64,000 bases of DNA from Candidatus Tayloriibacteriota bacterium (lineage in GTDB: Bacteria > Patescibacteriota > Minisyncoccia > Phycocordibacterales > PALSA-1337). Shown here in pieces: positions 9,856 through 49,742 of the stretch. Position 1 is the first letter of the stretch. Every line of letters begins with the position of its first letter. A program made the translations under genes and the position numbers. The stretch lies in NCBI GenBank assembly GCA_037129895.1, contig JBAXUB010000003.1, forward strand, positions 2,699 to 66,698, in the 5' to 3' direction. A model generated the notes under the pieces. That model worked only from the letters and a program-made list of their open reading frames with translations. It had not been told where the DNA came from and did not search any database.

Positions 9856-9873
9856 GTGCCGGGGAGAGGACTC
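9856..9873. repeat. Direct repeat of the tRNA-Leu 3' end (18 bp), middle copy
   Basis: It is identical to 9714-9731 and 10024-10041. Confidence 0.6.
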
Positions 9874-10024
9874 CCCCGCGACTCTCGGCTGACCAGTCAG
9901 CCTCGGTCTGGGCACCGGCTCGCGGCTCGGTGCGCTCACCTCGCACGCTCCGCCGTTCTCGTCCTACCCCATGTCACAATGATGCTCCATTCGGACTGCA
10001 TTTAGCAGTCCTCGTGGATCATTG

Positions 10025-10106
10025 TGCCGGGGAGAGGACTCGAACCTCCATGAATTGCTTCGCGTGGTCCTAAGCCACGTGCGTCTACCAATTTCGCCAC
10101 CCCGGC
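10025..10106 (-). tRNA. tRNA-Leu (anticodon TAG), type II with long variable arm
   Basis: I folded it by hand. Acceptor GCCGGGG pairs with CCCCGGC, anticodon arm is CGTGG-CTTAGGA-CCACG, and T arm is GGAGG-TTCGAGT-CCTCT. Length is 82 nt. Confidence 0.8.
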
Positions 10107-10271
10107 GTAGATATAACATAGCATGTTTATGTGGGATTGACAAAATGGTATAAACAATGTTATAGTACACACGGCTAAGTTCTCTTACAATGTGATTTGA
10201 ACCAAGTGCCAAAAGTAAACAACCGGGCCTTTATGCCCACGGCTGAATAAGCCAAAAAAGAAAGGATAGTT

Positions 10272-11702
10272 ATGTTAAGTGAAAAATTCGTGCTGACGGT
10301 AAGTCGGCTAGTCATGCCGATCGGATTCGCTGTCGAAAATTTGGTCGCACGTATGCTACTCATGTGGTATGCGTTTGATAGGTTCGTCGGGGTAGATAAG
10401 GCCCCTATCATGTTCTCTCAGGGGGAAGTGATCGGAGTGGATGCTACGTTCGACGCAGATGGTGAGGTGCCTATCGGGTGCGGACAAGGAAGGTTCGGGA
10501 CCGAGCATCCGGCCATCTCGGTGGCCAAAGAGCTCGGAATCCAGGACAACGCGGAGTTGTTACCGCTACTAGGATTTCTGAAAAATGGGACAGGTAGTGA
10601 GTTGCGACTGCAAGTGCTGTTCAAGTCCGTTCGTCGAAAGGTGAACGGTGACCCGAAGACATGCATTCAGGTTATGAGCATCTTCATTGATGCCATAATC
10701 ATGAATGCCCGGTACAATCCGGTCGCATGTCAGAAGGAACTGTCGCTGGAAGAGGTCTTTCAAGGTCTCATCAAGCGCAAGAAGTTCACTGACAAACGAG
10801 CCTGCGCTCATCTGCAAAAGCAGATCGAACTCAGTCTTGCGAACAGTAAAGATGTGACTGAGTTAAATCACGTCCTTATGGCACTGTTCCGTCGTCGTGA
10901 CAAGACTGTGACGACAGCGGATGTGCCTCTCTACAAGGAGGCTGACATCCTCGAGTGGATGGAGTTCGTCCTCACAGCCTATTACCAGCAGCAGATCGAC
11001 TTTGGCAAGGCGCTGGAGGAGGTTCGAGATTTGGAACCTGTCATGGTTCCTACACTGATCGGTAAGAGCAGATTCAAGATGAAGCTCATCACCGTATCGA
11101 GTGAAAATGATCAGGTGGCAAAAGCTGCCAGATCGCTCGGTGCGGACATAGTCTTGCACAGAGAGCCAATGTCTCTACGTCGTCACATAAGTTTTGGTCC
11201 TGTCCGTGGGTTATCTAGCCAGAACCTGGCGAAAATGATCGAGTGGATGGAGGTGCCGAAAAAAATGAAAAGTCGAGTAAAGTGGGCTGATCTGGGAAGC
11301 TTCGACAAGAGTCGCGGGATCACATGGTGGCACGTGGACCGCAACGGAAATCTGCATAATGGTACCAAGTACCGTCCGCAGCCGGAATCGATGATCGCAG
11401 ATTCTTCGATCGTTGATGCGATCCAGCACGCCTTCCATTTCGAGGAACTGAAGTTCTGGTGCAATCATCCGGATCGCAAGATCAGGATCTCGGCCAGAAC
11501 GGAAGGGAAGAAACAGCTCGCCCTTCCTCAGCCCAACGGAAACAATGGGAACGGGAATGGACATCACGAGGTAGCCGGGATCAATGCGGTGGCAACTGCA
11601 TTCGACAAAGCCTTGGAATCCAAGGCAGTCAGGGACGTTGTCAAAGACGTCAAGCCCAAGCGCAGGGTTAGTAAAGGGGACAAGGTTGTCAGCAGGGCAT
11701 AG
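10272..11702 (+). CDS. Hypothetical protein (GC-rich island; no recognisable domain)
   Basis: A 476-aa ORF at ~52% GC. I see no tyrosine-recombinase R..HxxR..Y signature. Confidence 0.45.
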   Translation: MLSEKFVLTVSRLVMPIGFAVENLVARMLLMWYAFDRFVGVDKAPIMFSQGEVIGVDATFDADGEVPIGCGQGRFGTEHPAISVAKELGIQDNAELLPLLGFLKNGTGSELRLQVLFKSVRRKVNGDPKTCIQVMSIFIDAIIMNARYNPVACQKELSLEEVFQGLIKRKKFTDKRACAHLQKQIELSLANSKDVTELNHVLMALFRRRDKTVTTADVPLYKEADILEWMEFVLTAYYQQQIDFGKALEEVRDLEPVMVPTLIGKSRFKMKLITVSSENDQVAKAARSLGADIVLHREPMSLRRHISFGPVRGLSSQNLAKMIEWMEVPKKMKSRVKWADLGSFDKSRGITWWHVDRNGNLHNGTKYRPQPESMIADSSIVDAIQHAFHFEELKFWCNHPDRKIRISARTEGKKQLALPQPNGNNGNGNGHHEVAGINAVATAFDKALESKAVRDVVKDVKPKRRVSKGDKVVSRA

Positions 11703-11780
11703 TACAAATCAAGAACAGGGGGTTCCAGACAACTGGGCCCCCTTTCCTTTTATCTCAACATCCAATAGTTGAATCTGGTA

Positions 11781-11809
11781 TTGTCTAAATCACAAAAACC
11801 TGTTATATT
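11781..11809 (+). promoter_or_regulatory. Sigma70-like promoter for tRNA-Lys
   Basis: TTGTCT is followed by 17 nt and then TATATT, ending 9 nt before the tRNA 5' end. Confidence 0.45.
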
Positions 11810-11818
11810 TTCTCGTAC

Positions 11819-11891
11819 GCGCCCATAGCTCAGCTGGTAGAGCAGATCCCTCTTAAGGATAAGGTCGTAGGTTCGATCCCTACTGGGCGCA
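11819..11891 (+). tRNA. tRNA-Lys (anticodon CTT)
   Basis: Acceptor GCGCCCA pairs with TGGGCGC, D arm is GCTC..GAGC, anticodon loop is CTCTTAA, and T arm is GTAGG-TTCGATC-CCTAC. Length is 73 nt. Confidence 0.8.
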
Positions 11892-12020
11892 CAGAAATGA
11901 AAGTATTATATTAGTAGCAGGTGCATTTATGCACCTGCGTGTGGGGAGCGACTGTCGGAACAATACCGAGCCTAGTCAGGCGAGGTTGTCATTTCATCGG
12001 TCACGTGCAATAATTACTTT

Positions 12021-36393: not shown

Positions 36394-36467
36394 GTCGGCG
36401 TAGCTCAGGTAGTTAGAGCATAGCATTCATAAAGCTAAGGTCGAAGGTGCAAGTCCTTCCGCCGACA
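36394..36467 (+). tRNA. tRNA-Met (anticodon CAT; elongator or Ile-lysidine type)
   Basis: Acceptor GTCGGCG pairs with CGCCGAC, anticodon loop is TTCATAA, and T arm is GAAGG-TGCAAGT-CCTTC. Length is 74 nt. Confidence 0.75.
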
Positions 36468-36525
36468 CAATTCTGCATTATTAGTCCGTTGTTGTTTTAT
36501 AAAAACATTATAATATCTTTTTGAT

Positions 36526-37206
36526 ATGCCAATATTGAAATATGTAAATAAAGATTTCTTCAAATTATGGACTCCAACTATGGCTTATGTGCTGGGGTTC
36601 TTTGCTGCGGATGGGTATATGACATTGAATAAAAGGGGAGCGTACTTTTGGAATATTCAGATCACTGAGCGGGAGTTACTTCAAATGATCAAAGTGGTGA
36701 TCAATTCTCATCATAAGATAAGTGTGCGAAAAGGAAATGGTAGAGAGAAAGAGTTATATAGGTTGCAAATAGGAAGTAAAGAGATGTTTAACGATTTACA
36801 GAATCTCGGCTTTATTCCCGGAAAGACTTATAGTATGGCAGTGCCTAGTGTGCCAGCTAAGTTCTTTAGGGATTTTGTCAGGGGATATTTTGATGGTGAT
36901 GGAAATGTCTGGGTCGGGTATACTCATCGAAACAGGTGCACTAGACTTCTTACCCTATCTTCCAGCTTTACCTCATGTTCGAGGGCTTTTCTTGATGAAT
37001 TGAGATGTCGATTGAGACTATTTGGCCTAATTTCTGGTTCTGTATATACAGGAAAGGGTAAATTCTTTCGTTTGAAATATAGTGTACGTAGCTCTATGAA
37101 ATTATACGATTTCATGTATAATAGTCCACATCTGATACCAAGCAGGGATTTGTTCCTAGATCGAAAGAAGTCAGTCTTTGAAAGGTATCTGAAAATGCGC
37201 CCGTAG
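36526..37206 (+). CDS. LAGLIDADG homing endonuclease (double-motif, freestanding)
   Basis: It carries two LAGLIDADG motifs, 'LGFFAADGYM' and 'RGYFDGDGNVW'. The 3' end overlaps tRNA-Asp by 10 nt. Confidence 0.8.
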   Translation: MPILKYVNKDFFKLWTPTMAYVLGFFAADGYMTLNKRGAYFWNIQITERELLQMIKVVINSHHKISVRKGNGREKELYRLQIGSKEMFNDLQNLGFIPGKTYSMAVPSVPAKFFRDFVRGYFDGDGNVWVGYTHRNRCTRLLTLSSSFTSCSRAFLDELRCRLRLFGLISGSVYTGKGKFFRLKYSVRSSMKLYDFMYNSPHLIPSRDLFLDRKKSVFERYLKMRP

Positions 37207-37270
37207 TTTAGCTGGCTAAAACAATCCCCTGTCACGGGATAGACCGTGGGTTCGAGTCCCATCGGGCGCG
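37197..37270 (+). tRNA. tRNA-Asp (anticodon GTC)
   Basis: Acceptor GCGCCCG pairs with CGGGCGC, anticodon arm is ATCCC-CTGTCAC-GGGAT, and T arm is GTGGG-TTCGAGT-CCCAT. Confidence 0.85.
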
Positions 37271-37362
37271 CATAGATTTGAGATCAATAGGTAAGCCACA
37301 GAAAGTTCACGGGTCTAGAGGACTTGAGCTGTGGTATAATTTTTGTATAGAATTTGGATTAT
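37271..37362 (+). repeat. ~90-bp direct repeat copy 1 carrying an extended -10 promoter (TGGTATAAT at 37332-37340)
   Basis: It is near-identical to 42820-42917. It sits immediately 3' of tRNA-Asp and ends at the glycosyltransferase ATG. Confidence 0.65.
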
Positions 37363-38556
37363 ATGAATATCTGCTATATTTATCCGGGGTATCCGCCAGA
37401 AAATCACTCAGGTGGCGTGGGTACTTTTATTGAGGAATTAGTTAAAACAATTTCTAAGTATGGGACGCATAAGATTGATATCATCTCTCGAAGTGACAAA
37501 TATTTCGATAGCATTGAAAATCTTTCGACTAATGTCACATTATATCGCTTAGGGGAAACCCCTTTAGCGGAAAACAGTCCTGTCCTGTTGTTTCGTAATG
37601 AAGGTTTTCTCCGCCATTATGAAAGAGTGTTAGAGGTTGTAAAAATGATTAATGGCAAAAATCCGATAGATGTAATTGAAGTTGCAGATTGGGGAGCTGA
37701 AGGATTTTTGGTATTGAAGCAATTTTTGGATATCACACTTGTGCGATGTCATACGCCAGCCTTTGTTTCGGAGAGCTATAATCCGAGTAGTAGATCATAT
37801 CTTTCGGACAACATAAAATCATCTGAAAAGAGTATGCTGTCAATCGCTAAACACATTGTTTGTCCCAGTAGAAGTCTCATAGATGAGATTGATAAGCGGG
37901 TACATATTGGTTGTGTACCAAAAATTGAGTTATATCCCCTTGATCTTGGTGATATTAGGACAAAGCAGGACTACGCAATAACATCGAATGAAATAAGATT
38001 GCTTAGCGTTGGTAGAATTGAAGAGCGAAAAGGACAGGATATCATATACCAGGCGTGTCAGCTTATTTCAGAACAAAACAAATATAATATTAGTCTGGAC
38101 CTTATTGGAGCAGATACATATGTCGGAATCAACATGCTATTTAGTAAGTACTTCATTGAGAAGTTAGTAGAAAAGCCGACGTTCAAATTTAGGTTGCTTG
38201 GTGAAATGTCTAGAAAAAAGGTTTTAGAAATATATCAATATTACGATATCTATATTGGTGCATCGAGATTCGATAATTACCCATATACACTTCTTGAAGC
38301 AATGGGCGCAGGTTTGCCGGTGATAGGGAACAACAATTCTGGGATCAGTGAAATAATGATTAAAAACATAAACGGTTTAACGTTTGCTGGTAACTCGACA
38401 GAGCTTGCGAATTCGATTAATACACTTATTCAAGATCAAAAATTACGTGCGTACATAGGAGAGAACGCGAGAAGTTTTATTGAGACAAAATTGACACCTG
38501 GTGTGGTTTATCGTAATGTAATTAGAACGTATCAAAATATATGCAAAAAAGAATAA
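37363..38556 (+). CDS. Glycosyltransferase family 4 (GT-B)
   Basis: It has the N-terminal 'GGVGTFIEEL' and the C-terminal 'E.FG..LLEAMGAGLPVIG'. Start was taken at ATG 37363; the tracker's 37354 is a TTG. Confidence 0.7.
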   Translation: MNICYIYPGYPPENHSGGVGTFIEELVKTISKYGTHKIDIISRSDKYFDSIENLSTNVTLYRLGETPLAENSPVLLFRNEGFLRHYERVLEVVKMINGKNPIDVIEVADWGAEGFLVLKQFLDITLVRCHTPAFVSESYNPSSRSYLSDNIKSSEKSMLSIAKHIVCPSRSLIDEIDKRVHIGCVPKIELYPLDLGDIRTKQDYAITSNEIRLLSVGRIEERKGQDIIYQACQLISEQNKYNISLDLIGADTYVGINMLFSKYFIEKLVEKPTFKFRLLGEMSRKKVLEIYQYYDIYIGASRFDNYPYTLLEAMGAGLPVIGNNNSGISEIMIKNINGLTFAGNSTELANSINTLIQDQKLRAYIGENARSFIETKLTPGVVYRNVIRTYQNICKKE

Positions 38557-40193
38557 TTTCTCACAATAAAAACCTTGGAAAAAGACTAACTATGCAGTCA
38601 GATTTGCTGTTTTCAATTCACCATTTATTTCACAAAAAAGGTTTTAAAGAGATTAATACTCCAATATTAAGTTTTCCCACAAAGGAATATGGTGACGGTG
38701 AATTTGTTGTCGTGTCCAAGCTCCAGCCTGGAAAGTTCTATTCTCTTCCGCATTCTCCCCAATTGTATAAACAATATTTATTGGCTCGTTTTCCAGAACT
38801 GAAAGCATACTATCAGATAGCGTCAAATTTTCGACCTGAAATTGGTGATAATACACACGCACAAGAATTTCATCAAATAGATTTCGAAATTGCAAATTTA
38901 TCTCTGGACGATGTGCGACGAACTATTGAGCAAATTTGTAGTAAAGCTTTTTCACTTATTGACATTAGGCCGACCTATACCGTTATGAGATTTGAAGACT
39001 CTGTGTGTCTTTATGGCTCCGATTCGCCTGATCTTAGATACAGCGGTGGGGAATTTAGAAACGACGGAAAGGAAGTATATTTCGAAATACCAATTAGAGA
39101 TGTCCTAGATTTGCAGAAGTTGAAATCGCAGTTACGTGCAAGAACAGGTGTTAGTATGAGAATCGGACCAAAGTCATTTGTATTTGCGTCTCAAAAGGGT
39201 AACTTATATATACTAGGAGATTTCCGAAATAGGCTGATCAAAAATTATGTATTACGTCTACATTCTAAATGGTCATTCGTCTGGCTGATCGATTTACCTC
39301 TATTCAAGCGCGATGGCAATGGGCAAATTTCCACCTTTCATCATCCGCAAATGTCACCAATGAGTCATTATGCTTTTTGGAAAGCCGCAAAATCAAAAGA
39401 TATTAACGAAGTACTTTCTTTGAGGGGAAATGGATGTGAGCTCATAGTCAACGGAATGGAGCTTGGAGGAGGTAATGTTCGTAATAACGATTTAAAGATA
39501 CAAAAGGAAATTCTTAACATTTGTGGAGTAAGTGACACATCGCTTAGATCTACGTTTAAACCATTACTTGATATGCTCAGATCGCATCCGAATTACAAAA
39601 GCTCTGGAGCAGCTGTAGGCCTTGATCGTCTTATGATGTTATTAACAAAGAGCGATTCTCTTTCAGATAACCGAGCATTTCCACAAGATAATAATGGCAC
39701 GGAGTATTTCGGTGGCCCCTCAAACGTTTCTATGTCAGATTTACAGGAATTAGGTTTAGATTATGAACACCCGATAATAACCCAGTCACGGCAAACAGCA
39801 ATACGACTCGTTGAGGCAAATAACAATTTTATTCACGATCGAAAACATATACAGAATGTTGAGCAAAATGCAGTCGCGATCGCTATCAATGAAGGAGTTT
39901 TACCAGACGAAATACTCATTTTAAGACTAGCGGCGCATTGGCATGATGTCGGACGAAATGATTGGTTGCCACGTGAAATTGAACCCCACGCAGAAATTTC
40001 TATGAAAGCATTTAGAGAATGGGCGAATACGATGGGGATGCCAAATTCAGTAATTACTCCTGTTGAGTTATTGATAAAGGAACATGATGAACTATCGAAG
40101 ATCGAGCATCCTGATAAATTATTAAAAATCTTGCAAGACGGTGATAGGTTGGATGTTATTAATGTTGAGAGAGTGCAGAGGATATTGGCGTAG
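38541..40193 (+). CDS. Class IIb (AspRS-like) aminoacyl-tRNA-synthetase catalytic domain without anticodon-binding domain, fused to a C-terminal HD phosphohydrolase domain
   Basis: Motif 1 is 'FKEINTPIL'. Motif 2 is 'LPHSPQLYKQYLL...FRPEIGDNTHAQEFHQIDFEIA'. Motif 3 is 'ELGGGNVRNNDLKIQ...AAVGLDRLMMLLT...AFPQ'. The C-terminus carries 'AAHWHDVGR...EHD...DGDRLD'. Confidence 0.6.
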   Translation: MQKRIISHNKNLGKRLTMQSDLLFSIHHLFHKKGFKEINTPILSFPTKEYGDGEFVVVSKLQPGKFYSLPHSPQLYKQYLLARFPELKAYYQIASNFRPEIGDNTHAQEFHQIDFEIANLSLDDVRRTIEQICSKAFSLIDIRPTYTVMRFEDSVCLYGSDSPDLRYSGGEFRNDGKEVYFEIPIRDVLDLQKLKSQLRARTGVSMRIGPKSFVFASQKGNLYILGDFRNRLIKNYVLRLHSKWSFVWLIDLPLFKRDGNGQISTFHHPQMSPMSHYAFWKAAKSKDINEVLSLRGNGCELIVNGMELGGGNVRNNDLKIQKEILNICGVSDTSLRSTFKPLLDMLRSHPNYKSSGAAVGLDRLMMLLTKSDSLSDNRAFPQDNNGTEYFGGPSNVSMSDLQELGLDYEHPIITQSRQTAIRLVEANNNFIHDRKHIQNVEQNAVAIAINEGVLPDEILILRLAAHWHDVGRNDWLPREIEPHAEISMKAFREWANTMGMPNSVITPVELLIKEHDELSKIEHPDKLLKILQDGDRLDVINVERVQRILA

Positions 40194-40199
40194 TATAGT

Positions 40200-41039
40200 A
40201 TGGGCAATCAGATCGGCGAGTACAATTATTATCAGTCTATAGCATTTTGGGTTAAAATGAACAAAACCATGAACAATATTTTACAGACAAAATCAGCGAA
40301 AAAAATGTATTTAGATCGCCAATCGGAATTTAACGATATTATAGAGTTGTTACGCGTGTACAGGATCGACACTAAAAGAACAATAATTGCACTTGGTGGT
40401 GCGGAATCAATCACAGGCATATATAACTCTTTGGATAGGTCGGTACTCGGTTCTGTTGCTTCCGACAAAATCAAAATGCTTTATGTACCTATTGGCGTTT
40501 TCGGAAATGCTGATATTGTCAAAACAGTTGATGAATATGTAACGATTGTAAAGAGGTATTATCAAGGTTTGGGTAGTGAGGTTGATTTTAAGTATGTAAG
40601 CCCTCATGATTCTGAGGATGAGATTATTTCAAAAATTAAGGAGGCAGGCATAGTTTATTTAGCAGGAGGTGATACAAAATATTTAATCGAGAAGCTAAGT
40701 GCACCCAAAATAGAAGAGGCACTTAAAGAATCTTATGAAAAAGGAACAATTCTGATTGGAAACAGTGCTGGTATATTGTGTCTTCTTCAAAATCCAGTTT
40801 CATTTTCCTATGGTGATGAGCCAGAATACATGAAAGGTCTTGGATTACTAAAAAAATATTGCATCCTGGTTCACTATTCACCAGAGAAGGATGCACATAT
40901 AAAAAAAATACAGAAGCAAGTTAAGGATGATCAAATAGTACTGCTACCTGAATCTGGTGCCGCAATATTTATAAATGAGGAGCTCGTAGCTTCTACGGAA
41001 AAAAATAGCGTGTTACCCACTGCTGGTAACACGCGCTAG
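40200..41039 (+). CDS. Peptidase S51 family (dipeptidase E/cyanophycinase-like)
   Basis: 'IVYLAGGDTKYLIEKL' is followed by the nucleophile motif 'GNSAGILCL', then His in 'VHYSPE'. Confidence 0.5.
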   Translation: MGNQIGEYNYYQSIAFWVKMNKTMNNILQTKSAKKMYLDRQSEFNDIIELLRVYRIDTKRTIIALGGAESITGIYNSLDRSVLGSVASDKIKMLYVPIGVFGNADIVKTVDEYVTIVKRYYQGLGSEVDFKYVSPHDSEDEIISKIKEAGIVYLAGGDTKYLIEKLSAPKIEEALKESYEKGTILIGNSAGILCLLQNPVSFSYGDEPEYMKGLGLLKKYCILVHYSPEKDAHIKKIQKQVKDDQIVLLPESGAAIFINEELVASTEKNSVLPTAGNTR

Positions 41040-41061: not shown

Positions 41062-42552
41062 TTAGTCAGTGTAGTGTCCGATCGATGAGCTCAATGTATC
41101 AGGATTTACAGTGATCCTACCAAGGACTTGCTGTCTATCATTTTCGGTGGGTTCTTGGAATGATCTATTGCCATGAACCTGGGCCGTAATTTCAGCAAGG
41201 TCGTCCACGAACTTTTGATAAAACTGGCGCGTATACTCACATGCACGCTTATCACAGTTCATCATGTTTCCTGATTGTACCCACGATTCGTAGGCACAGG
41301 CATTCCCACATATCCCTATGGCTTTACAACCTTGACATGTATCGATGTAGACAGGTGAGCGTCGCTGAAGTGAATCTAGGATGTTTGGTTTCATCGAACA
41401 ACAATTAGCTGGTTCGATAGTCATACCACTAGCTAGTGTGTTAAGAGCTAGGAATGATTTACATGGACCGATGTTGCCTCGGGCATCAATGTTAATCGTT
41501 GTACCAGCGGCGGCTCCGCAATCGTGGTATCTGAACCTTCTGGTAACAAATGGATGGACTCTTCTGTACACGAGTTCAAAGAATAGTCCTGTGTTACGAA
41601 ACACACGGAAAGCATCATATGTTGCTTGGACGAAGTCAATAGGCGTGATCAGGAATGGGAAGTCCCCTTGACTCTTTGTTGGAGGCTTCATGTAGTTCAC
41701 TCCGATGCTTACTGGCCGATATTCTTCCAACATGGTTGAGATTTCACGTTTAAGATGGCAGACGTTGTGTTTTCCAATCACCATCGAAAGACCGAGTTCT
41801 ATACCAAAGCTGTTGAGTAGGCGGATGCCCATGTCAACTTGTTTGAATGATCCACGACCAGTGTGGTCTTTGCGCAGTATATCGTGGATGTCCTGTTGGC
41901 CATCAATCGATACTATCACCTTGATGTTATGGTGAGATAGATATTTCGCCCGTTCCGCGTTGATCAATATTCCGTTTGTGCCAAGCGCGATGAAGTATCT
42001 TTCACCAGCGCGTTTGAGCGATTCGACGAGAACGATTATTTGTTTTACACGTTCCCAAGCTATTAAAGGTTCCCCACCTGAAATATGTATGACCTTAGGC
42101 GTCGATGGGACGGAACCATTAAAGAAGAGTTCGATTACGTGTTTAAGATCCTCTGGTGATGCGGCCCGTTTAGTTACTGTAGTGATATTGTGCATAACCT
42201 TACAATAATCACAGCTCAGGTTGCAAACGTCTGTAAGGAGGATGCGTAGAAGCCTGTACCCACTATTACGGGTGCTCGTTTCTGGAGTTATGAAGTCAGT
42301 TAACTGTTCGTTTTCAGATAAAGCTACAAACGAGCCTCTGTTCAATGTCTCCACAAGATGCTTCGCTTCAGTGGGACAATATAATTGTTCCGCAAATGCG
42401 GAGACTTCTTCTTGTGTCCTATCACTAGTTATGAAATTTGCAAGTCTAATCAATCTGTTATCGCCGAATATTTGATTCAGCGAAACCGATTGGGATAAAA
42501 CCTGCAGTCCATTGCTAGCAATCATGGACTTGCTGAATTTTGATAATCTCAT
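41062..42552 (-). CDS. Radical SAM/SPASM-domain peptide maturase with N-terminal RRE (PqqD-like) domain
   Basis: The rSAM motif is CNLSCDYC (Cx3Cx2C). The C-terminal Cys-rich SPASM region reads 'CQGCKAIGICGNACAYE'. The ~110-aa N-terminal extension is PqqD/RRE-like. Confidence 0.75.
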   Translation of the reverse strand: MRLSKFSKSMIASNGLQVLSQSVSLNQIFGDNRLIRLANFITSDRTQEEVSAFAEQLYCPTEAKHLVETLNRGSFVALSENEQLTDFITPETSTRNSGYRLLRILLTDVCNLSCDYCKVMHNITTVTKRAASPEDLKHVIELFFNGSVPSTPKVIHISGGEPLIAWERVKQIIVLVESLKRAGERYFIALGTNGILINAERAKYLSHHNIKVIVSIDGQQDIHDILRKDHTGRGSFKQVDMGIRLLNSFGIELGLSMVIGKHNVCHLKREISTMLEEYRPVSIGVNYMKPPTKSQGDFPFLITPIDFVQATYDAFRVFRNTGLFFELVYRRVHPFVTRRFRYHDCGAAAGTTINIDARGNIGPCKSFLALNTLASGMTIEPANCCSMKPNILDSLQRRSPVYIDTCQGCKAIGICGNACAYESWVQSGNMMNCDKRACEYTRQFYQKFVDDLAEITAQVHGNRSFQEPTENDRQQVLGRITVNPDTLSSSIGHYTD

Positions 42553-42708
42553 TCAGTTTCCTTTTGTTGTAAATGATCAACTATGTTGAGAAATCTTGGG
42601 GATAAATTTGGTACCGTTTAGGTACGTTTCTATGGAAATATATATCACAAAATAGTAGAAATGGCAAGCTGTTAGCAAATCTTATCTTATCTGGAACGTT
42701 TGTGGTTT

Positions 42709-42776
42709 GTTAAACAATAGTGCACAACCTGGTGGGGTAATTGAATGTTGGAATACTTTTTGTCGTTTTACCCATA
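42709..42776 (-). CDS. Candidate 21-aa precursor peptide MGKTTKSIPTFNYPTRLCTIV (unannotated small ORF)
   Basis: I translated it by hand. It has an AGGAA RBS 6 nt upstream, sits ~155 nt upstream of the maturase on the same strand, and has a single Cys near the C-terminus. Confidence 0.2.
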
Positions 42777-42819
42777 TTCTTCCTTATCCCAGTTCCAACA
42801 TCCTCCTACCGCGTCCGCG

Positions 42820-42917
42820 CATAGATTTGAGGTCAATAGTAAGCCACAGAAAGTATGTGGATCTAGAGGACTTGAGCTGTGGTATAATTTTTGTATAGAA
42901 TTTTAATATACGAGTTT
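42820..42917 (+). repeat. ~90-bp direct repeat copy 2 with extended -10 promoter (TGGTATAAT at 42890-42898)
   Basis: It is near-identical to 37271-37362 and ends at ATG 42918. Confidence 0.65.
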
Positions 42918-43685
42918 ATGCCAACAGAACAAATGAATTTCGATCAATTGATATCAAAACTGTCCAATAATCAGAATGTGGACGCGCTACTTCTGTGTGG
43001 TTCAACTGCTACACAAACGCGTACTACTAGTAGTGATTATGATCTTGTTGTTATTGTCAAAGATAAGCCTGAAAAGCTAGTGTCGATGTTTGCAACGATC
43101 GGTAACGTACCAGCTGATATTTTTTTCTTTACAATATTGGAAATAGAAACTATTTTGAAGAACATGAGTGTGAAAGATGGTGCGGAGATGTGGCTATTGA
43201 ATTGGCTCGAAACTGGCAAGATTTCCTTCGATAAGTCTGGGACCTTAACGAAACTGCAAGAAACGAGAAGGAGTGTACAGAAGCCAGACAATGTTTCTTT
43301 GGCTAAGTCCTACGAATACAAGATCAATTATAATCTTCTGGCTAATACACGGTATTTTGAATCTAAAGATGAGCTTTATCATGCGGCACTAGAGATCCGT
43401 CTTTTATATTCCATTGTCGAAGCACTGGTCGGATATTTTACTATGCGTGCCATAAATTGGGAAGGAGAGAAGAGTGCTATCCTATATCTAAGAAAGAACG
43501 ACCCAGCATATCTGAAAGTATTTGAGTCAGTCTGTAGAGAGACATCTCTTTTTAGTAAGTTCGCTTCTTACAAGAAATTAGTTGAGGAGTCATTTTATGG
43601 TAAATACAAGAAGTGGGATAATGATATTGCTGTTAGTATGGATGGTGACTTCGGTGAATTCTGGAGGGGTCTATTGAATATGTAA
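42918..43685 (+). CDS. Nucleotidyltransferase-fold protein (Pol-beta superfamily, ANT/Lnu-like)
   Basis: It carries 'LLCGSTATQ...SDYDLVVIV', which is the GS...D.D motif. Confidence 0.5.
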   Translation: MPTEQMNFDQLISKLSNNQNVDALLLCGSTATQTRTTSSDYDLVVIVKDKPEKLVSMFATIGNVPADIFFFTILEIETILKNMSVKDGAEMWLLNWLETGKISFDKSGTLTKLQETRRSVQKPDNVSLAKSYEYKINYNLLANTRYFESKDELYHAALEIRLLYSIVEALVGYFTMRAINWEGEKSAILYLRKNDPAYLKVFESVCRETSLFSKFASYKKLVEESFYGKYKKWDNDIAVSMDGDFGEFWRGLLNM

Positions 43686-43774: not shown

Positions 43775-44368
43775 TCAAAATAATTTTTTGACGGTTTTTC
43801 TTAAATTTTGAAATATATCGATCTCTAGGAAACCAATTTTTTCAACCAAGCGCCTTGTATCTATTGCGCGAACCTGAGACAAGATGGCAGAAGCGTGTTT
43901 TCCTTGAATTTCTCCTATAGGCACACGTAAATAATGTTTACGAAGAGAAGTGGTGAGAGGTATAACCATACAGATATTGGCCCCAAATCCACGGATGATC
44001 AAAACTGGTCTTAAGAAGTCCTCTCCATTACCATCTTGCTCCGAGCCTATGTTTATACCTAGTCTGCACCACCAAACTTCCCGTACAGTATAGAGGCGCG
44101 GTTTTTCTATATGTACAAGTTTCTTCTTGAAATTCCAACTGTCAAATTCTTTATTAATAGAAACTGGGTCTTCGAATGAGAACCTGATACCGTATTCTAC
44201 GCCAAATTCACTATTTCGAATATGATTTTCAGCTTCTTTTGCGGCTGTATATAGCAGGTCAAATGTACCAAGGACACTGATTTCTCCATTGGTATCAAAA
44301 TCCATTTCAGAAACATAATATTTTCCTGTAGGCGTTTCTTCTATTTGAATGTAATTATTTGTACTCAT
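43775..44368 (-). CDS. MazF/PemK-family toxin domain with ~100-aa N-terminal extension
   Basis: The C-terminal half reads '...RPVLIIRGF...ICMVIPLTTS...AILSQVRAIDTRRLVEKIGFL', a MazF signature. No separate antitoxin ORF was seen upstream. Confidence 0.55.
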   Translation of the reverse strand: MSTNNYIQIEETPTGKYYVSEMDFDTNGEISVLGTFDLLYTAAKEAENHIRNSEFGVEYGIRFSFEDPVSINKEFDSWNFKKKLVHIEKPRLYTVREVWWCRLGINIGSEQDGNGEDFLRPVLIIRGFGANICMVIPLTTSLRKHYLRVPIGEIQGKHASAILSQVRAIDTRRLVEKIGFLEIDIFQNLRKTVKKLF

Positions 44369-45432: not shown

Positions 45433-46062
45433 ATGAAAAGACCAAGTCTACCACAGTCACAGGATTTGCCTATTATCTCAAGGGACCAGCTGCATGACTT
45501 ATATATTACGTGTCGTCAATCAGTTTCTGCAATCGCTATTTTGTTAAAATGTTCTCAGAATAGAATTAACTACTGGCTGGCAAAATATCATATACCAAAA
45601 AGGACTATTTCCGAGGCAATTTATCAGTTAAGAAATCCTAAGGGTGATCCGTTTCTATATAAACCACCGGATAGTTTAGAGACAGCAGTATTGTTTGGAA
45701 TGGGACTCGGGTTATATTGGGGTGAAGGCTCAAAACGTGGGACGGGTGGTGTTAGATTGACTAATACAGATCCGAGATTGCTAAGAAAATTCATTGAGTT
45801 TTTACAAGTATCATTCAACATTGATAGGTTTAAGTTGAGATTTGGCCTCCAAATATTCGATGATCTTTCGAAAGTTAAGACTTTGTCATATTGGACTCGC
45901 GAACTCGGAGTCAGCAGAAAACAGTTTTATAAGATTATTGTTTCAAAGATTCGCGGTAAAGGAACATATAAGATTAAGTCTGCAAATGGTGTGATAATTG
46001 TATATTTCAATAATATCAAACTGAAGAGACAGATCTGTGCCATGATTGATAATATCAGATAA
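45433..46062 (+). CDS. HTH-containing protein with a possible degenerate single LAGLIDADG-like motif
   Basis: It has an N-terminal HTH-like segment and 'FGMGLGLYWGEGSKRGTGGVRL', which is LAGLIDADG-like and resembles the single-motif family. The call is weak. Confidence 0.25.
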   Translation: MKRPSLPQSQDLPIISRDQLHDLYITCRQSVSAIAILLKCSQNRINYWLAKYHIPKRTISEAIYQLRNPKGDPFLYKPPDSLETAVLFGMGLGLYWGEGSKRGTGGVRLTNTDPRLLRKFIEFLQVSFNIDRFKLRFGLQIFDDLSKVKTLSYWTRELGVSRKQFYKIIVSKIRGKGTYKIKSANGVIIVYFNNIKLKRQICAMIDNIR

Positions 46063-47214: not shown

Positions 47215-48141
47215 ATGGGAGACTATATTTCGAGAATTGAATCAATCAAGATATCTTATCCAGACTTAAAGGATGAGAATTTTGTGCCTGCAAAAAGTGG
47301 TACTCATCATGCAGTATTTATATCGAAAAATTTTGTGATCCGTTTCAGAGATGATAATCCGAGTCTACTTCAGCGAGAAGCGAAGCTTCTAGAAACGATT
47401 TCAGATACGCTGGTTCCAAAAGTTCTGTGGAAGAATTTTGAAGAAAAAGTGGGTGTCATCGTGGAAAATCGCTTACATGGAGAGAATATTAGTTTGGTAT
47501 GGAAATCATTATCAGTACAAGAAAGATCTAAATTAGTAAGTGGGTTAGTTGAATTTATTGGGAAACTTAGAAATATTGTGGGGAACAGGGTGTCTTCTGT
47601 TAGTAATGGTAAAGAGTATTCAAATTTTATTGATTTATTGCTTGATGGAGTACAGGAAAAGATTTCAAAGATATCTGAGTTCGATAAGGCTCGTGCCGTT
47701 ATTGCCGAAATTGAGCAGACTATTTCAGGTCAGGATATGATTGGGGATTTGTTTAATGGGTCAAAGATTTCGCTGATTCATGGTGATTTGATCAATCATA
47801 ATTTGTTGTCTGATGGTGGCAAACTCACTGGTGTTTTAGACTGGGAATTGGCTTGTTATGGTGATCAGGATTTTGATTTGTTTAGGCTTTTCTACTATCG
47901 TGAATGTGCCATGGCTTATCACGGTCAGGGTGTTGATGATACTTATGAATCTGAATATATGGATATTCTGATTGAAGAAATATACAAGTCAGGTCTAATA
48001 GGTGACGATAATATTTTTCAAAAAAAATATGCCTTTGTACGAGCAATCTTTTTTGTTAATGCACTATATTGGGATGTTTCATCCAATAAGGCGGAGGAAA
48101 ATCTCGCGAGTACTATAAATTTGTGGTTTAAGGGTAAATAA
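47215..48141 (+). CDS. Aminoglycoside phosphotransferase (APH)/choline-kinase family kinase
   Basis: It carries 'IHGDLINHNLL...VLDWELACYGDQDFDL', the Brenner/HGD motif plus a DxD motif. Confidence 0.6.
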   Translation: MGDYISRIESIKISYPDLKDENFVPAKSGTHHAVFISKNFVIRFRDDNPSLLQREAKLLETISDTLVPKVLWKNFEEKVGVIVENRLHGENISLVWKSLSVQERSKLVSGLVEFIGKLRNIVGNRVSSVSNGKEYSNFIDLLLDGVQEKISKISEFDKARAVIAEIEQTISGQDMIGDLFNGSKISLIHGDLINHNLLSDGGKLTGVLDWELACYGDQDFDLFRLFYYRECAMAYHGQGVDDTYESEYMDILIEEIYKSGLIGDDNIFQKKYAFVRAIFFVNALYWDVSSNKAEENLASTINLWFKGK

Positions 48142-48305: not shown

Positions 48306-49742
48306 TTACCCGGTGCTTGTGTCAAGCTCCTGTGACTTTAGGTGCTCGATTATCAATGCGTCTGTTATCTCTCGATAGAATTCGCACTGGCTTGTAAAGA
48401 TCTTGTTGTCTTGGAAAGACCCACTTTTTGAAGAGAATTCTCGAGTAACTTCGCATTGGCCAGCACAGGCGCACTCGATTTGGCATCCTATACAGACCTT
48501 GTCGGTCCCAGGGTATCTCGCTTTCACAAGTCGTGAAAGATTGTTGTTACTCTCAAATAGCTTATCGAAAGTATTTACATGACCAATTCGACTGGTTGTA
48601 TGACTGCAGACTTTAATACTTCCGTCAGTGTTGAATTCAAGCGACTTTCCTTGGACGGCTGCACAGAATGTATGCGTCTCTGTGAGGAGGTTTCCGCTAG
48701 TAAGATTCCTGTAGGCACTGTCCCATGTACCGAAGAAGTTTATGCCAATTGCGTCAGCGTACTTTTTTAGGCACATAAGCTTACTTACTTTTTCCTTTGT
48801 CGGCACATTGTGGAGTCCTATCAGATCGTAATCAAACGCGATAGACGTCATCTGTCGATTGGCTGCCCAGTCGATTATGTCTGTTCCAATAGAATCAAAG
48901 TTGTTCTGCGCCACAGTTATACTAAATCCGTCCAAGGGGTACCCAATATGATCTAGAAGGTCGATATTTTTTACAATTGCGTCAAATGTTCCTCGTCCTT
49001 CGTTTGTTATGCGTATAGCATTGTTGGCGATTTTAGTGCCGTCTAGAGATGTAGCGATGCGAACCTTAAATTTCTTCAGGGTATGTGCTATGTCGGACGT
49101 TAATAACGTAAGGTTTGTATTAATAGTGAATTCAAACGAGATGTCCGAAATAGAGTCACAGTAGTGTAGTATTTTAGCAATAGTTTGCCAGTTGAATAAT
49201 GGTTCTGCATTGCCGAAATGAATCTTGCAGTGATTTCGGTTGTGATCTCGTAGTAGTGCAATAAATCCGTCTATACATATTTTTGCGGTTTCCCATGTCA
49301 TGTTGAGTCCCGGTAATGGTCGCCTATACTCAGTAATTTTTTCTTGCGTCTCCGAATCCTTCTGGAAATGGATACAATGTTTGCAGGCTAGGTTGCACCA
49401 GTCACTAATAGCTAAACCCATTCTATCTACGGTCCGTCCACTAGCCAGTTCAAGTAAGTATTTTGATCGATTTTGAACTAGTATAAGTCGTTCGTCTTGG
49501 CCAGGGATGATGAGGAAAGATAATTGCTTGAAGTTTTCAAGTAGTTCTCTAGGGTCGTCATCGCACTGTTCGACAATAGCAATTAAAGTTTGTGGCTTCA
49601 AAAACAAGTTGAGAAAATTAATTCCTTCTGCATTCAGGATTCTGGGATTTCCGAACAGTTTGTGGTAAACCAGGGTTGAATTGGAAGACGGCTCTTTAAC
49701 ATAGCGTAAGAATGGAGATAGTTGATATTTTGAATCTTGCAT
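48306..49742 (-). CDS. Radical SAM/SPASM-domain peptide maturase with N-terminal RRE (PqqD-like) domain
   Basis: The rSAM motif is CNLACKHC (Cx3Cx2C), and the SPASM region reads 'CIGCQIECACAGQCE'. The N-terminal stretch 'ILNAEGINFLNLF...TLIAIVEQ...DPRELLENFKQLSFLI' is PqqD/RRE-like. Confidence 0.75.
   Translation of the reverse strand: MQDSKYQLSPFLRYVKEPSSNSTLVYHKLFGNPRILNAEGINFLNLFLKPQTLIAIVEQCDDDPRELLENFKQLSFLIIPGQDERLILVQNRSKYLLELASGRTVDRMGLAISDWCNLACKHCIHFQKDSETQEKITEYRRPLPGLNMTWETAKICIDGFIALLRDHNRNHCKIHFGNAEPLFNWQTIAKILHYCDSISDISFEFTINTNLTLLTSDIAHTLKKFKVRIATSLDGTKIANNAIRITNEGRGTFDAIVKNIDLLDHIGYPLDGFSITVAQNNFDSIGTDIIDWAANRQMTSIAFDYDLIGLHNVPTKEKVSKLMCLKKYADAIGINFFGTWDSAYRNLTSGNLLTETHTFCAAVQGKSLEFNTDGSIKVCSHTTSRIGHVNTFDKLFESNNNLSRLVKARYPGTDKVCIGCQIECACAGQCEVTREFSSKSGSFQDNKIFTSQCEFYREITDALIIEHLKSQELDTSTG

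What the first reader, a model, noticed from the sequence alone, without database searches (positions are those of the whole stretch)
41062..42776. RRE-containing radical SAM/SPASM maturase with a candidate 21-aa Cys-containing precursor ORF upstream
The enzyme has Cx3Cx2C (CNLSCDYC), a C-terminal SPASM cysteine cluster and a ~110-aa N-terminal PqqD-like RRE. That combination is characteristic of RiPP maturases such as sacti-/ranthipeptide and SCIFF-type enzymes. On the same strand ~155 nt upstream I found an unlisted 22-codon ORF, MGKTTKSIPTFNYPTRLCTIV, with a good AGGAA RBS. With only one Cys it would be an atypical core peptide, so the assignment is tentative.
Basis: partly seen in the sequence, partly recalled or inferred. 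Interest (0 to 1): 0.65.

Follow-up and report, generated by a model that had tools for sequence, protein, structure and literature searches.

The report
Orphan radical SAM enzyme, conserved cassette
The radical SAM enzyme is real and looks like a peptide-modifying maturase, but the 21-residue upstream ORF is probably a chance ORF; the enzyme's conserved partners are a glycosyltransferase, a truncated aspartyl-tRNA-synthetase-like ligase fused to a phosphohydrolase, and an Asp-type peptidase, a combination I found described nowhere.

Summary
Observation confirmed. Window 41062-42552 (-) encodes a 496-aa radical SAM protein with CNLSCDYC, a 7-Cys SPASM pattern and an N-terminal beta3-alpha3 domain of RRE/PqqD topology. 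Its best structural matches are CteB and TigE. The ORF MGKTTKSIPTFNYPTRLCTIV exists at 42710-42775 (-).

The RiPP-precursor interpretation is not supported:
- No similar ORF lies upstream of 15 homologues.
- No intergenic small ORF is conserved across 14 clusters.
- 11% of simulated intergenic regions contain such an ORF with an SD-like motif.

What is conserved is the convergent operon next door: GT4 glycosyltransferase, an AspRS catalytic core without its anticodon domain fused to HD, and an S51 peptidase. This set accompanies the enzyme in 11 distinct lineages, in different gene orders and fusion states. A sister cluster type uses bona fide SerRS, a nucleotidyltransferase and shikimate-dehydrogenase-like genes. 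Other variants add kinases, phosphoribosyltransferases, nucleotidases or carbamoyltransferases.

The enzyme also has a strongly conserved C-terminal tail (…LSxSIGH) beyond the SPASM domain.

Best reading: the signature enzyme of an uncharacterised, precursor-less cassette that probably makes an aspartylated, glycosylated, nucleotide-derived small molecule. A peptide substrate encoded elsewhere, or the enzyme's own tail, remains possible.

The parts
41062..42552 (-). Radical SAM/SPASM enzyme, 496 aa, with an N-terminal RRE-like domain. It is the only gene common to all cluster types of this family.
   Evidence: The homologue P0001 is 100% identical but was called 9 residues shorter. The conserved N-terminal 'LSKF' motif supports the ATG at 42552.
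42328..42552 (-). RRE/PqqD-like winged-helix domain (residues 1-75). Its topology is three strands followed by three helices.
   Evidence: AF2 places E7-11, E17-21, E26-30, H32-40, H47-57 and H60-72 at pLDDT about 96. The PDB profile alignment to CteB starts at profile position 37, and to TigE at position 5. There is no Pfam PqqD hit.
42202..42225 (-). The CX3CX2C motif (CNLSCDYC, residues 110-117) that binds the radical SAM [4Fe-4S] cluster.
   Evidence: C110, C114 and C117 are invariant in 32 homologues.
41239..41520 (-). SPASM region (residues 345-438) with seven invariant Cys, expected to bind two auxiliary clusters.
   Evidence: C345, C364, C406, C409, C415, C419, C438. The fold matches CteB, anSME and ChlB.
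41065..41169 (-). Conserved C-terminal tail beyond the SPASM domain (residues 462-496). The motif is [FY]xxP[TS]xxDRxxLLG-x7-[TS]LSxSIGH.
   Evidence: R473, L487, G492 and H493 are invariant; S490 and I491 are at least 90% conserved. Tail pLDDT is 88-96 over residues 461-490, falling to 64 for 491-496, in the full model. It stays at 80-91 when the RRE domain is deleted, so the tail packs on the catalytic core.
42710..42775 (-). The 21-aa ORF MGKTTKSIPTFNYPTRLCTIV, judged to be a chance ORF and not part of the system.
   Evidence: A weak sigma-70-like -35/-10 pair (42713..42684, minus strand) lies downstream of it, but such hits are not above chance in this region.
40998..41034 (-). Intrinsic-terminator-like hairpin plus T-run, starting 28 nt after the enzyme's stop codon. 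It lies inside the 3' end of the convergent S51 gene.
   Evidence: 10-bp stem with 6 GC pairs, followed by TATTTTTTTC.
37354..38556 (+). GT4 glycosyltransferase, the first gene of the convergent operon.
   Evidence: Pfam Glycos_transf_1 3.7e-28 and GT4-conflict 1.7e-07. It co-occurs with the enzyme in all 11 type-A lineages and in the Enterousia variant.
38541..40193 (+). AspRS-like class II catalytic core (about residues 1-400) fused to an HD phosphohydrolase domain (about residues 430-545). It overlaps the GT4 gene by 16 nt.
   Evidence: tRNA-synt_2 5e-54, HD 7e-04. It lacks the anticodon OB domain and most of the GAD insertion, keeps motifs 1-3, and has an altered motif-2 loop. The family has only about 11 close members. 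At least 7 of them come from contigs whose lengths match contigs that carry an enzyme homologue (P0005-7, P0009, P0011, P0052, L016).
40200..41039 (+). Peptidase S51 domain protein (PepE/cyanophycinase family). It is in the same frame as the preceding gene and separated from it by an in-frame TAG at 40191-40193.
   Evidence: Peptidase_S51 1.1e-21. The homologues are single proteins of 799-836 aa containing AspRS-core, HD and S51. At the TAG column they carry Q, H or Y.

Best explanation
The enzyme is a real three-domain radical SAM protein: an RRE-like winged helix, the radical SAM core, and a SPASM domain with two auxiliary clusters. It belongs to an uncharacterised family. The 21-aa upstream ORF is most likely a chance ORF.

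The enzyme has its own promoter region and terminator. Functionally it belongs with the convergent operon immediately downstream: GT4 glycosyltransferase, AspRS-like catalytic core fused to HD phosphohydrolase, and S51 peptidase.

Proposed mechanism (all steps inferred):
1. The tRNA-independent AspRS core activates aspartate as Asp-AMP and ligates it to a non-tRNA acceptor.
2. The GT4 enzyme adds a sugar.
3. HD removes phosphate(s).
4. S51 hydrolyses an Asp-X bond, either for processing or for self-protection.
5. The radical SAM enzyme performs the key H-atom-abstraction step (oxidation, cross-link or rearrangement) on this small, probably nucleotide-derived, aminoacylated substrate.
6. The conserved C-terminal ...SIGH tail folds back onto the catalytic core and acts as an active-site gate, as the GG tail of MoaA does.

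Shown here: the domain architecture, the conserved synteny, the absence of a conserved precursor gene, the conserved tail, and its docking on the core in the AF2 models.
Inferred: the substrate class, the order of steps, and the tail's role.
For: Architecture.

No precursor gene:
- Upstream regions of 15 loci share no ORF with the window's peptide.
- An all-against-all comparison of 2504 ORFs of 12-110 aa from 14 clusters recovers only out-of-frame or antisense shadows of the conserved genes.
- The chance expectation is 11-64%.

Cassette:
- AspRS-like, HD and GT4 occur within a few kb of the enzyme in 11 distinct lineages at 35-62% identity, and S51 occurs in 10 of them.
- The genes appear convergent, co-directional, fused or split.
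- The aaRS-like family is tiny, and at least 7 of its roughly 11 close members come from contigs whose lengths match enzyme-bearing contigs.

Small-molecule or nucleotide flavour of variant clusters:
- thymidylate kinase and a pyruvate-kinase-like gene;
- Glycos_transf_3;
- phosphoribosyltransferase, NT5C nucleotidase, metallophosphoesterase and carbamoyltransferase;
- nucleotidyltransferase/DUF4037, shikimate-dehydrogenase-like, AP_endonuc_2/GFO_IDH and bona fide SerRS;
- sulfotransferase and an MFS exporter;
- UDP-glucose dehydrogenase and an epimerase.

Ligase: it lacks the anticodon-binding domain and has an altered motif-2 loop.

Tail: it is conserved and keeps its pLDDT without the RRE domain. 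[quoted passage not shown]
Against: - The RRE-like domain is confidently folded and retained across the family. In every characterised case known to me, such a domain on a radical SAM/SPASM enzyme binds a leader peptide.
- All the nearest characterised relatives by sequence and structure act on peptides or proteins.
- No substrate was identified.
- The gene contents of the cluster variants are heterogeneous, and their shared nucleotide theme is my reading, not a test.
- I could not inspect model coordinates, so the tail's contact with the active site is not shown.
- Some family members sit in contexts with no recognisable partners (L029/L030; L035 at a contig end).
Confidence: 0.42

Rival explanations
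1. An RRE-dependent peptide or protein maturase whose ribosomal substrate is encoded elsewhere in the genome, or is too short or divergent to recognise. The cassette enzymes would tailor that peptide: Asp ligation, O-glycosylation, and S51 cleavage. This resembles how mycofactocin combines a radical SAM/SPASM enzyme, an RRE, a peptidase and a glycosyltransferase.
For: - The RRE-like fold is retained, with conserved beta2-beta3 residues ('CLxHSLxQxQxFG').
- The nearest relatives are CteB, TigE, PapB, FibroRumin and DynA.
- A peptidase and a glycosyltransferase are conserved partners.
Against: - No conserved small ORF occurs in or beside 14 clusters, whereas precursors of known radical SAM RiPPs are almost always adjacent.
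- No leader protease/exporter pair was seen.
- Variant clusters are full of nucleotide- and sugar-handling enzymes.
Confidence: 0.25
2. Self-substrate. The enzyme's own conserved C-terminal tail (...LSxSIGH) is the core peptide. It would be modified in cis or within a dimer, then glycosylated or aspartylated and released by S51. This would be a radical SAM analogue of the borosins, where the core is fused to the enzyme, and of peptide-derived cofactors such as mycofactocin or PQQ.
For: - The enzyme is the only gene shared by all cluster types, so the substrate must be either a universal metabolite or the enzyme itself.
- The tail is among the most conserved parts of the protein and lies outside the SPASM fold.
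- No separate precursor exists.
- The tail is confidently docked on the catalytic core.
Against: - Stoichiometric self-consumption of an Fe-S enzyme would be costly.
- Clusters of types B and C have no peptidase.
- The tail does not depend on the RRE domain in the models, which leaves the RRE unexplained.
- The MoaA precedent explains a conserved Gly-containing tail without invoking a substrate role.
Confidence: 0.12
3. A classical RiPP locus: the 21-aa ORF at 42710-42775 is the precursor of this maturase.
For: The ORF is on the same strand, 157 nt upstream, with AGGAA 5 nt before the ATG and one Cys.
Against: - It is not conserved next to any of 15 orthologues.
- An ORF like it is expected by chance in 11-64% of such regions.
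- It has no Pfam match.
- The only promoter-like site on this strand lies downstream of it, which is weak evidence.
Confidence: 0.04
4. A tRNA- or aminoacyl-tRNA-directed modification system. The winged-helix N-domain would bind RNA, the aaRS-like protein would recognise a tRNA acceptor end, and the GT4 and radical SAM enzymes would modify a nucleoside. This recalls GluQRS and glycosyl-queuosine on tRNA-Asp.
For: - tRNA-Asp(GTC) lies 83 nt upstream of the GT4 gene in the window.
- Type-B clusters carry full-length SerRS with its tRNA-binding arm.
- HD and nucleotidyltransferase domains also occur in CCA-adding enzymes (my own knowledge).
Against: - The tRNA-Asp adjacency is absent in all 16 other loci checked.
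- The AspRS-like core has lost its anticodon domain and changed its motif-2 loop.
- Kinases, nucleotidases and an MFS exporter fit free metabolites better.
Confidence: 0.07
5. An anSME-type maturase that oxidises a Ser or Cys in a full-length protein.
For: TIGR03942 matches at 101 bits over nearly the full model. anSME structures are strong fold matches.
Against: - The score is far below the 349-bit cut-off and is no better than the scores for RiPP maturase models.
- An RRE-like domain is present, which the anSME structures lack: Foldseek aligns about 375-385 columns to anSME against about 470 to CteB.
- No sulfatase is encoded in any neighbourhood examined.
Confidence: 0.03

Closest known systems
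CteB (SCIFF thioether maturase, PDB 5wgg) and TigE (cyclopropylglycine synthase, PDB 8vpo)
   Same: They share the three-domain order of N-terminal RRE, radical SAM core and SPASM with two auxiliary clusters. They are the best sequence-profile hits in the PDB (E = 1.7e-32 and 1.5e-26). They are also the best Foldseek hits (E = 4e-21 and 6e-20, about 470 aligned columns).
   Different: - Identity is only 17%.
- There is no adjacent precursor gene.
- This family has an extra conserved tail of about 35 aa after the SPASM domain.
- Its partners are an aaRS-like ligase, HD, GT4 and S51, not a precursor, protease and exporter.
PapB-family ranthipeptide maturases (NF047865)
   Same: This is the best NCBIfam hit (119.8 bits, covering residues 102-430). 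PapB enzymes form Cys-Asp/Glu thioethers (my own knowledge), and aspartate is also the presumed amino acid of this cassette.
   Different: The score is far below the 340-bit cut-off. No Cys-rich precursor is present.
MoaA (GTP 3',8-cyclase)
   Same: MoaA is a radical SAM enzyme with a C-terminal auxiliary cluster and a conserved Gly-containing C-terminal tail (…NYIGG). The tail enters the active site and gates SAM cleavage on a nucleotide substrate (PMC12625886). Here the tail ends …SIGH, with an invariant Gly and His.
   Different: The match to TIGR02666 is only 59 bits against a 284-bit cut-off. MoaA has one auxiliary cluster and no RRE. A tail function in this family is untested.
Mycofactocin pathway (MftA-F)
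   Same: It combines a radical SAM/SPASM enzyme, an RRE, a peptidase and a glycosyltransferase to make a glycosylated, peptide-derived small molecule (my own knowledge).
   Different: - That pathway has a dedicated precursor, MftA, and a separate RRE protein, MftB.
- Its peptidase is creatininase-type and its transferase is GT2.
- It has no aaRS-like ligase or HD domain.
- No MftC model appears among the top NCBIfam hits.
Mycothiol and bacillithiol biosynthesis (MshA/A2/B/C, BshA/B/C)
   Same: The logic is a GT4 glycosyltransferase, a phosphatase, an amidase and an aaRS-paralogue ligase that attaches an amino acid to a sugar. The GT4 here hits BshA and MshA weakly (E = 8e-11 and 3e-9).
   Different: MshC is a class I CysRS paralogue, whereas the ligase here is a class II AspRS core. 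Those pathways contain no radical SAM enzyme. The GT4 score is far below their cut-offs.
Aminoacyl-nucleoside aaRS inhibitors (albomycin, microcin C)
   Same: In those gene clusters, radical SAM enzymes, a carbamoyltransferase, a methyltransferase and an extra SerRS (albomycin), or an Asp-adenylate mimic with a serine-peptidase immunity protein (microcin C), occur together (my own knowledge). The type-B sister clusters here carry one or two bona fide SerRS genes.
   Different: I tested no homology to the albomycin (Abm) or microcin C (Mcc) proteins. The AspRS-like protein here cannot serve as a resistant housekeeping copy, because it lacks the anticodon domain.

Membership tests
RRE-dependent radical SAM/SPASM RiPP maturases (sacti-/ranthipeptide, SCIFF type) | CX3CX2C radical SAM cluster motif | tested here: met
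   CNLSCDYC at residues 110-117, invariant in 32 homologues. Pfam Radical_SAM 1.9e-15.
RRE-dependent radical SAM/SPASM RiPP maturases (sacti-/ranthipeptide, SCIFF type) | SPASM domain with 7-8 Cys for two auxiliary [4Fe-4S] clusters | tested here: met
   Seven invariant Cys with C-x2-C-x5-C-x3-C spacing. The fold superposes on CteB, anSME and ChlB. The Pfam SPASM model itself is not hit.
RRE-dependent radical SAM/SPASM RiPP maturases (sacti-/ranthipeptide, SCIFF type) | N-terminal PqqD-like RRE domain | tested here: met
   Met at the level of fold only: beta3-alpha3 topology at pLDDT about 96, and about 470 columns aligned to CteB and TigE. There is no Pfam PqqD hit at E <= 10. Peptide binding is not testable here.
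RRE-dependent radical SAM/SPASM RiPP maturases (sacti-/ranthipeptide, SCIFF type) | A precursor peptide gene adjacent to the maturase and conserved with it | tested here: not met
   No homologue of the 21-aa ORF occurs upstream of 15 orthologues. No conserved intergenic small ORF occurs in 14 clusters.
RRE-dependent radical SAM/SPASM RiPP maturases (sacti-/ranthipeptide, SCIFF type) | Score above the curated cut-off of a named maturase family (PapB, SCIFF, FibroRumin, DynA, QhpD and others) | tested here: not met
   The best score is PapB at 119.8 bits against 340. All 25 listed models fall far below their cut-offs.
Anaerobic sulfatase-maturating enzymes (anSME) | Score above the TIGR03942 cut-off, no RRE domain, and a sulfatase target encoded nearby | tested here: not met
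   101 bits against 349.45. An RRE-like domain is present. No sulfatase occurs in the window neighbourhood or in the related loci.
MoaA-type GTP cyclases | Score above the TIGR02666 cut-off, and a conserved C-terminal Gly tail | tested here: not met
   59.4 bits against 284. A conserved Gly-containing tail exists, but that is a resemblance and not membership.
Canonical aspartyl-tRNA synthetase (for the partner gene 38541-40193) | Anticodon-binding OB domain plus catalytic core, and a score above the aspS cut-off | tested here: not met
   234 bits against 443 for NF001750. The OB domain and most of the GAD insertion are absent, while motifs 1-3 are retained.
Mycofactocin system | MftA precursor with a C-terminal GVY motif, a separate MftB protein, and MftC, MftE and MftF orthologues | tested here: not met
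   No precursor is present. No MftC model appears among the top hits. The peptidase is S51 and the transferase is GT4.

The most novel reading that the evidence does not exclude
The cassette is a precursor-less pathway in which an aaRS catalytic core, not a ribosomal precursor, supplies the amino-acid building block. The building block would be Asp-AMP or an Asp ester in type-A clusters and Ser in the sister type.

The RRE/radical SAM/SPASM enzyme converts that building block on a nucleotide scaffold into a stable, glycosylated aminoacyl-nucleoside. The product would be an aaRS-targeting 'Trojan-horse' type metabolite. S51 in type A, and the extra SerRS copies in type B, would provide self-protection.

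The cassette's patchy spread across CPR bacteria, DPANN archaea, reduced-genome Alphaproteobacteria and Streptomyces would make it a horizontally traded weapon or host-interaction molecule of episymbionts.
Probability: 0.15. Interest if true: 0.85.

Novelty: new variant of a known kind. Interest (0 to 1): 0.62.

Why it matters
The enzyme would be flagged as a ranthipeptide or sactipeptide maturase by domain content alone. Yet across 11 lineages it never has a precursor gene. It always travels with a truncated AspRS-like ligase, an HD phosphohydrolase and a GT4 glycosyltransferase, and with an S51 peptidase in 10 of the 11.

If the substrate is a small molecule, this would be, to my knowledge, the first case of an RRE-bearing radical SAM/SPASM enzyme working outside peptide chemistry. 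It would also caution against calling RiPP clusters from RRE and SPASM domains alone.

If the substrate is the enzyme's own tail, or a peptide built with the help of an aaRS core, it would be a new biosynthetic logic.

Either way, the cassette is a compact four- to five-gene target that can be expressed directly. It comes from organisms (CPR, DPANN) whose specialised metabolism is almost unexplored.

Tried and rejected
1. Conservation of the 21-aa ORF. Upstream regions of 15 loci and an all-against-all comparison of small ORFs gave only shadow ORFs of the conserved genes.
2. A small ORF shared by L001 and L003 (MVMV...QCGVC...). I rejected it because the two loci are near-identical relatives. 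L004 lacks it, and other frames of the same stretch are equally 'conserved'.
3. Small genes called downstream of the cluster in L089 and L090. They show no similarity to each other or to anything else.
4. A riboswitch or leader RNA in 42553-42890 and in the 880-nt L001 spacer. There were no credible Rfam hits, and the folding z-score was +0.5.
5. Promoter placement. One weak minus-strand site lies downstream of the small ORF, but the number of sites is at chance level, so I did not use it as evidence.
6. The divergent nucleotidyltransferase (42891-43685) as a relative of the NTase/DUF4037 partner of type-B clusters. No similarity was found, and it is absent from L001-L004, so it is not part of the system.
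7. tRNA-Asp adjacency as a conserved feature. It is absent in 16 other loci.
8. Defence-system membership. PADLOC gave only generic viperin-like radical SAM similarity.
9. The 464-aa unknown partner in the Enterousia clusters as a hidden aaRS. It has no Pfam, NCBIfam or PDB profile match, so this is unresolved.
10. Literature searches for the gene combination found no description of it.
11. Whether the tail docks on the RRE domain. Its pLDDT is unchanged when the RRE is deleted, so it does not appear to.
Full report
**1. The observation**

- The minus-strand ORF at 41062-42552 encodes 496 aa.
- It carries CNLSCDYC at residues 110-117 and matches Pfam Radical_SAM at 1.9e-15.
- In an alignment of 32 homologues at 33-62% identity, the three motif Cys are invariant. 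So are seven further Cys with SPASM spacing: C345, C364, C406, C409, C415, C419 and C438.
- AlphaFold2 with that alignment gives a confident model (mean pLDDT 89, pTM 0.90). Its first 72 residues form three strands followed by three helices at pLDDT about 96, which is the PqqD/RRE topology.
- Foldseek against the PDB ranks CteB (5wgg) and TigE (8vpo) first, with about 470 aligned columns. That length implies the alignments run through their N-terminal domains. anSME, ChlB and SuiB follow. A profile search of PDB sequences gives the same order.
- Neither Pfam PqqD nor Pfam SPASM is hit at sequence level, even on isolated pieces at E <= 10.
- The small ORF at 42710-42775 (-) reads MGKTTKSIPTFNYPTRLCTIV. 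AGGAA lies 5 nt before its ATG, and it ends 157 nt upstream of the enzyme's start.

**2. Is the small ORF more than chance, and is it conserved?**

- In 5000 first-order Markov simulations of the 338-nt spacer, 64% contain an ATG ORF of at least 21 codons. With an SD-like motif as well, the figure is 11%.
- The protein database holds one identical copy of the enzyme, and the next homologues are at about 62% identity. Conservation could therefore only be tested at that distance and beyond.
- I listed every ORF of at least 12 codons in the 500 nt upstream of the enzyme in 15 loci. None resembles the window's peptide.
- I then compared 2504 ORFs of 12-110 aa from 14 clusters all-against-all with short-query BLAST. 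Every multi-locus group is an out-of-frame or antisense shadow of the enzyme, the glycosyltransferase or the ligase. No intergenic ORF recurs.
- There is no Rfam element and no excess RNA structure in the spacer.

**3. What is conserved instead**

The closest homologues (L001-L004) all have the enzyme convergent with two genes. One is a GT4 glycosyltransferase. The other is an 819-836-aa protein that combines tRNA-synt_2, HD and Peptidase_S51.

The window has the same genes on the plus strand:

| Gene | Coordinates |
|---|---|
| GT4 glycosyltransferase | 37354-38556 |
| AspRS-like core + HD | 38541-40193 |
| S51 peptidase | 40200-41039 |

The S51 gene ends 22 nt from the enzyme's stop codon. 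A terminator-like hairpin at 41034-40998 (-) follows the enzyme gene.

The same set recurs in other arrangements:
- Magasanikbacteria have a co-directional operon (L006, L016).
- L008, L090, L092, L094 and L089 carry the set as separate genes in other orders.
- A deltaproteobacterial MAG has it too (L032).

Profile searches over all fetched loci give AspRS-like, HD and GT4 in 11 distinct lineages, and S51 in 10 of them.

The AspRS-like family itself is tiny, with about 11 close members. At least 7 of them come from contigs whose lengths match enzyme-bearing contigs. Repeated fusion, fission and reordering with retained linkage is strong evidence that these genes work together.

The window's copy is annotated by NCBI in a Candidatus Taylorbacteria MAG.

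**4. The partners**

- *Ligase.* It aligns with canonical bacterial AspRS through motifs 1, 2 and 3 (LPHSPQLYKQ, FRPE...QEFHQIDFE, HHPQ, GGGNVR, GLDRLMMLLT). It lacks the roughly 125-aa anticodon-binding OB domain and most of the GAD insertion. Its motif-2 loop is different. I infer that it activates aspartate but does not use tRNA as the acceptor.
- *HD domain.* It keeps the H...HD...D signature.
- *S51.* It keeps a GNSAG nucleophile elbow.
- *The split in the window.* The ligase/HD and S51 parts are in one frame, interrupted by a TAG at 40191-40193. Homologues have Q, H or Y at that position. An ATG follows two codons later. S51 is a separate gene in several other lineages, so the split need not be inactivating.

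**5. Sister clusters**

The enzyme family also occurs in other settings.

- *Type B.* This type is found in Streptomyces, Kitasatospora, Streptacidiphilus, a Woesearchaeota MAG, a Falkowbacteria MAG and Alphaproteobacteria. The enzyme sits with a nucleotidyltransferase/DUF4037 protein and one or two SerRS genes. The two SerRS copies tested (L034) score above the serS cut-off. It also sits with a shikimate-dehydrogenase-like gene, AP_endonuc_2/GFO_IDH oxidoreductases and often a carbamoyltransferase.
- *Type C.* In Actinomycetota MAGs the enzyme sits with a sulfotransferase and an MFS transporter.
- *Other variants* add thymidylate kinase and a pyruvate-kinase-like gene or Glycos_transf_3. One adds a phosphoribosyltransferase, NT5C nucleotidase, a metallophosphoesterase and a carbamoyltransferase.
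- *Enterousia* (Alphaproteobacteria) keep HD and GT4. In place of the ligase and S51 they have an unknown 464-aa protein and an alpha/beta hydrolase.
- Some SerRS copies from different phyla are 45-66% identical to each other, against 30-40% for other pairs. This suggests a cluster-dedicated SerRS lineage.

The radical SAM enzyme is the only gene common to all of these. The recurring accessory functions are the phosphorylation, dephosphorylation, glycosylation, carbamoylation, sulfation and aminoacylation typical of small-molecule pathways, especially nucleoside and sugar pathways. None of the clusters has a recognisable precursor.

**6. The C-terminal tail**

- After the last SPASM Cys and a long helix, the family has a tail of about 35 residues. 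Its end is among the most conserved parts of the protein: [FY]xxP[TS]xxDRxxLLG-x7-[TS]LSxSIGH, with R473, L487, G492 and H493 invariant.
- In the model the tail is confidently placed. pLDDT is 88-96 for residues 461-490 and falls to 64 for the last six residues.
- Re-predicting the protein without residues 1-95 leaves the tail at pLDDT 80-91. The tail therefore packs on the catalytic core, not on the RRE domain. I could not read coordinates, so contact with the active site is not shown.
- A documented precedent is MoaA. [quoted passage not shown]
- The alternative is that the tail is itself a fused core peptide, as in borosins (my own knowledge). That cannot be excluded.

**7. Explanation and rivals**

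I favour, at about 0.4, a precursor-less small-molecule pathway.
- The AspRS core supplies activated aspartate.
- GT4 adds a sugar, and HD trims phosphate.
- S51 cleaves an Asp-X bond.
- The radical SAM enzyme performs the radical step, with its tail as a gate.

The main counter-argument is the well-folded, retained RRE-like domain, together with the fact that every close characterised relative acts on peptides.

The main rival, at about 0.25, is therefore a peptide substrate encoded elsewhere. Self-modification of the tail follows at about 0.12. A tRNA-directed role stands at about 0.07. It was prompted by tRNA-Asp(GTC) lying directly upstream of GT4 in the window, but that adjacency is not seen in 16 other loci.

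**8. Comparison with known families, and novelty**

- The enzyme meets the cofactor-motif and fold criteria of RRE-dependent radical SAM/SPASM maturases.
- It fails two membership criteria: an adjacent conserved precursor, and any curated family cut-off.
- It is not an anSME and not a MoaA.
- The cassette resembles mycofactocin (radical SAM/SPASM, RRE, peptidase, glycosyltransferase). It also resembles mycothiol/bacillithiol logic (GT4, phosphatase, aaRS-paralogue ligase). It is a member of neither.
- Full-text searches found no description of this gene combination. PADLOC gave nothing specific.
- I rate it a new variant of a known kind: a recognisable enzyme class in an undescribed, conserved and widely but patchily distributed context.

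Noticed in passing
window 40191-40193: An in-frame TAG splits what is a single AspRS-core/HD/S51 protein (799-836 aa) in the closest relatives. An ATG follows two codons later. At this column the relatives have Q, H or Y, so a CAG-to-TAG change is plausible. It could be a recent nonsense mutation, a sequencing error or a natural split.
   Followed up: partly
window 37197-37271: tRNA-Asp(GTC) lies 83 nt upstream of the GT4/AspRS-like operon. This is suggestive given the ligase's ancestry, but no tRNA-Asp lies near the cassette in 16 other loci.
   Followed up: yes
window 48306-49742 (-): A second orphan radical SAM/SPASM protein (478 aa) is 21% identical to the first. It also has an N-terminal extension that aligns to RRE-bearing maturases. 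Its best hit is PapB at 87 bits against a 340-bit cut-off. It lacks the ...SIGH tail. Its neighbours are an APH-family kinase (47215-48141) and unknown proteins.
   Followed up: partly
window 36526-37206 and 45433-46062: A free-standing LAGLIDADG homing-endonuclease-like ORF lies between tRNA-Met (36394-36468) and tRNA-Asp. A second, weaker LAGLIDADG/HTH ORF lies at 45433-46062. The first also weakly matches the intein region of a B12-dependent ribonucleotide reductase model.
   Followed up: no
window 42891-43685 (+) and 43775-44368 (-): A Pol-beta-type nucleotidyltransferase (MntA-like, weak hits to PADLOC PDC-S09) is divergent from the enzyme. Next to it is a 197-aa protein with a C-terminal PemK/MazF toxin domain. 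The pair may be a toxin-antitoxin-like module. It is absent from the orthologous loci.
   Followed up: partly
alignment A1; homologues P0029, P0037, P0041, P0047 (Actinobacteria): Actinobacterial family members carry an extra N-terminal extension of about 70 aa that begins with a conserved Cys-rich motif (…GGCGSCG…), ahead of the RRE-like domain. Its function is unknown.
   Followed up: no
L036 and L037: The 'Falkowbacteria' and 'Bdellovibrionales' MAG contigs carry identical SerRS genes and identical cluster layouts. They are probably the same organism binned under two names, so the Bdellovibrionales assignment should not be relied on.
   Followed up: partly
window about 6000-12000: GC content rises to 0.48-0.53 against about 0.40 elsewhere in the window. 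No rRNA was found there by Rfam. I did not examine the region further.
   Followed up: no
L019 11762-13156 (and L010, L020, L024): In the Enterousia clusters a conserved 464-aa protein occupies the position of the AspRS-like ligase. It has no Pfam, NCBIfam or PDB-profile match and contains a CIGHCIGEG motif. An alpha/beta hydrolase occupies the position of S51.
   Followed up: partly
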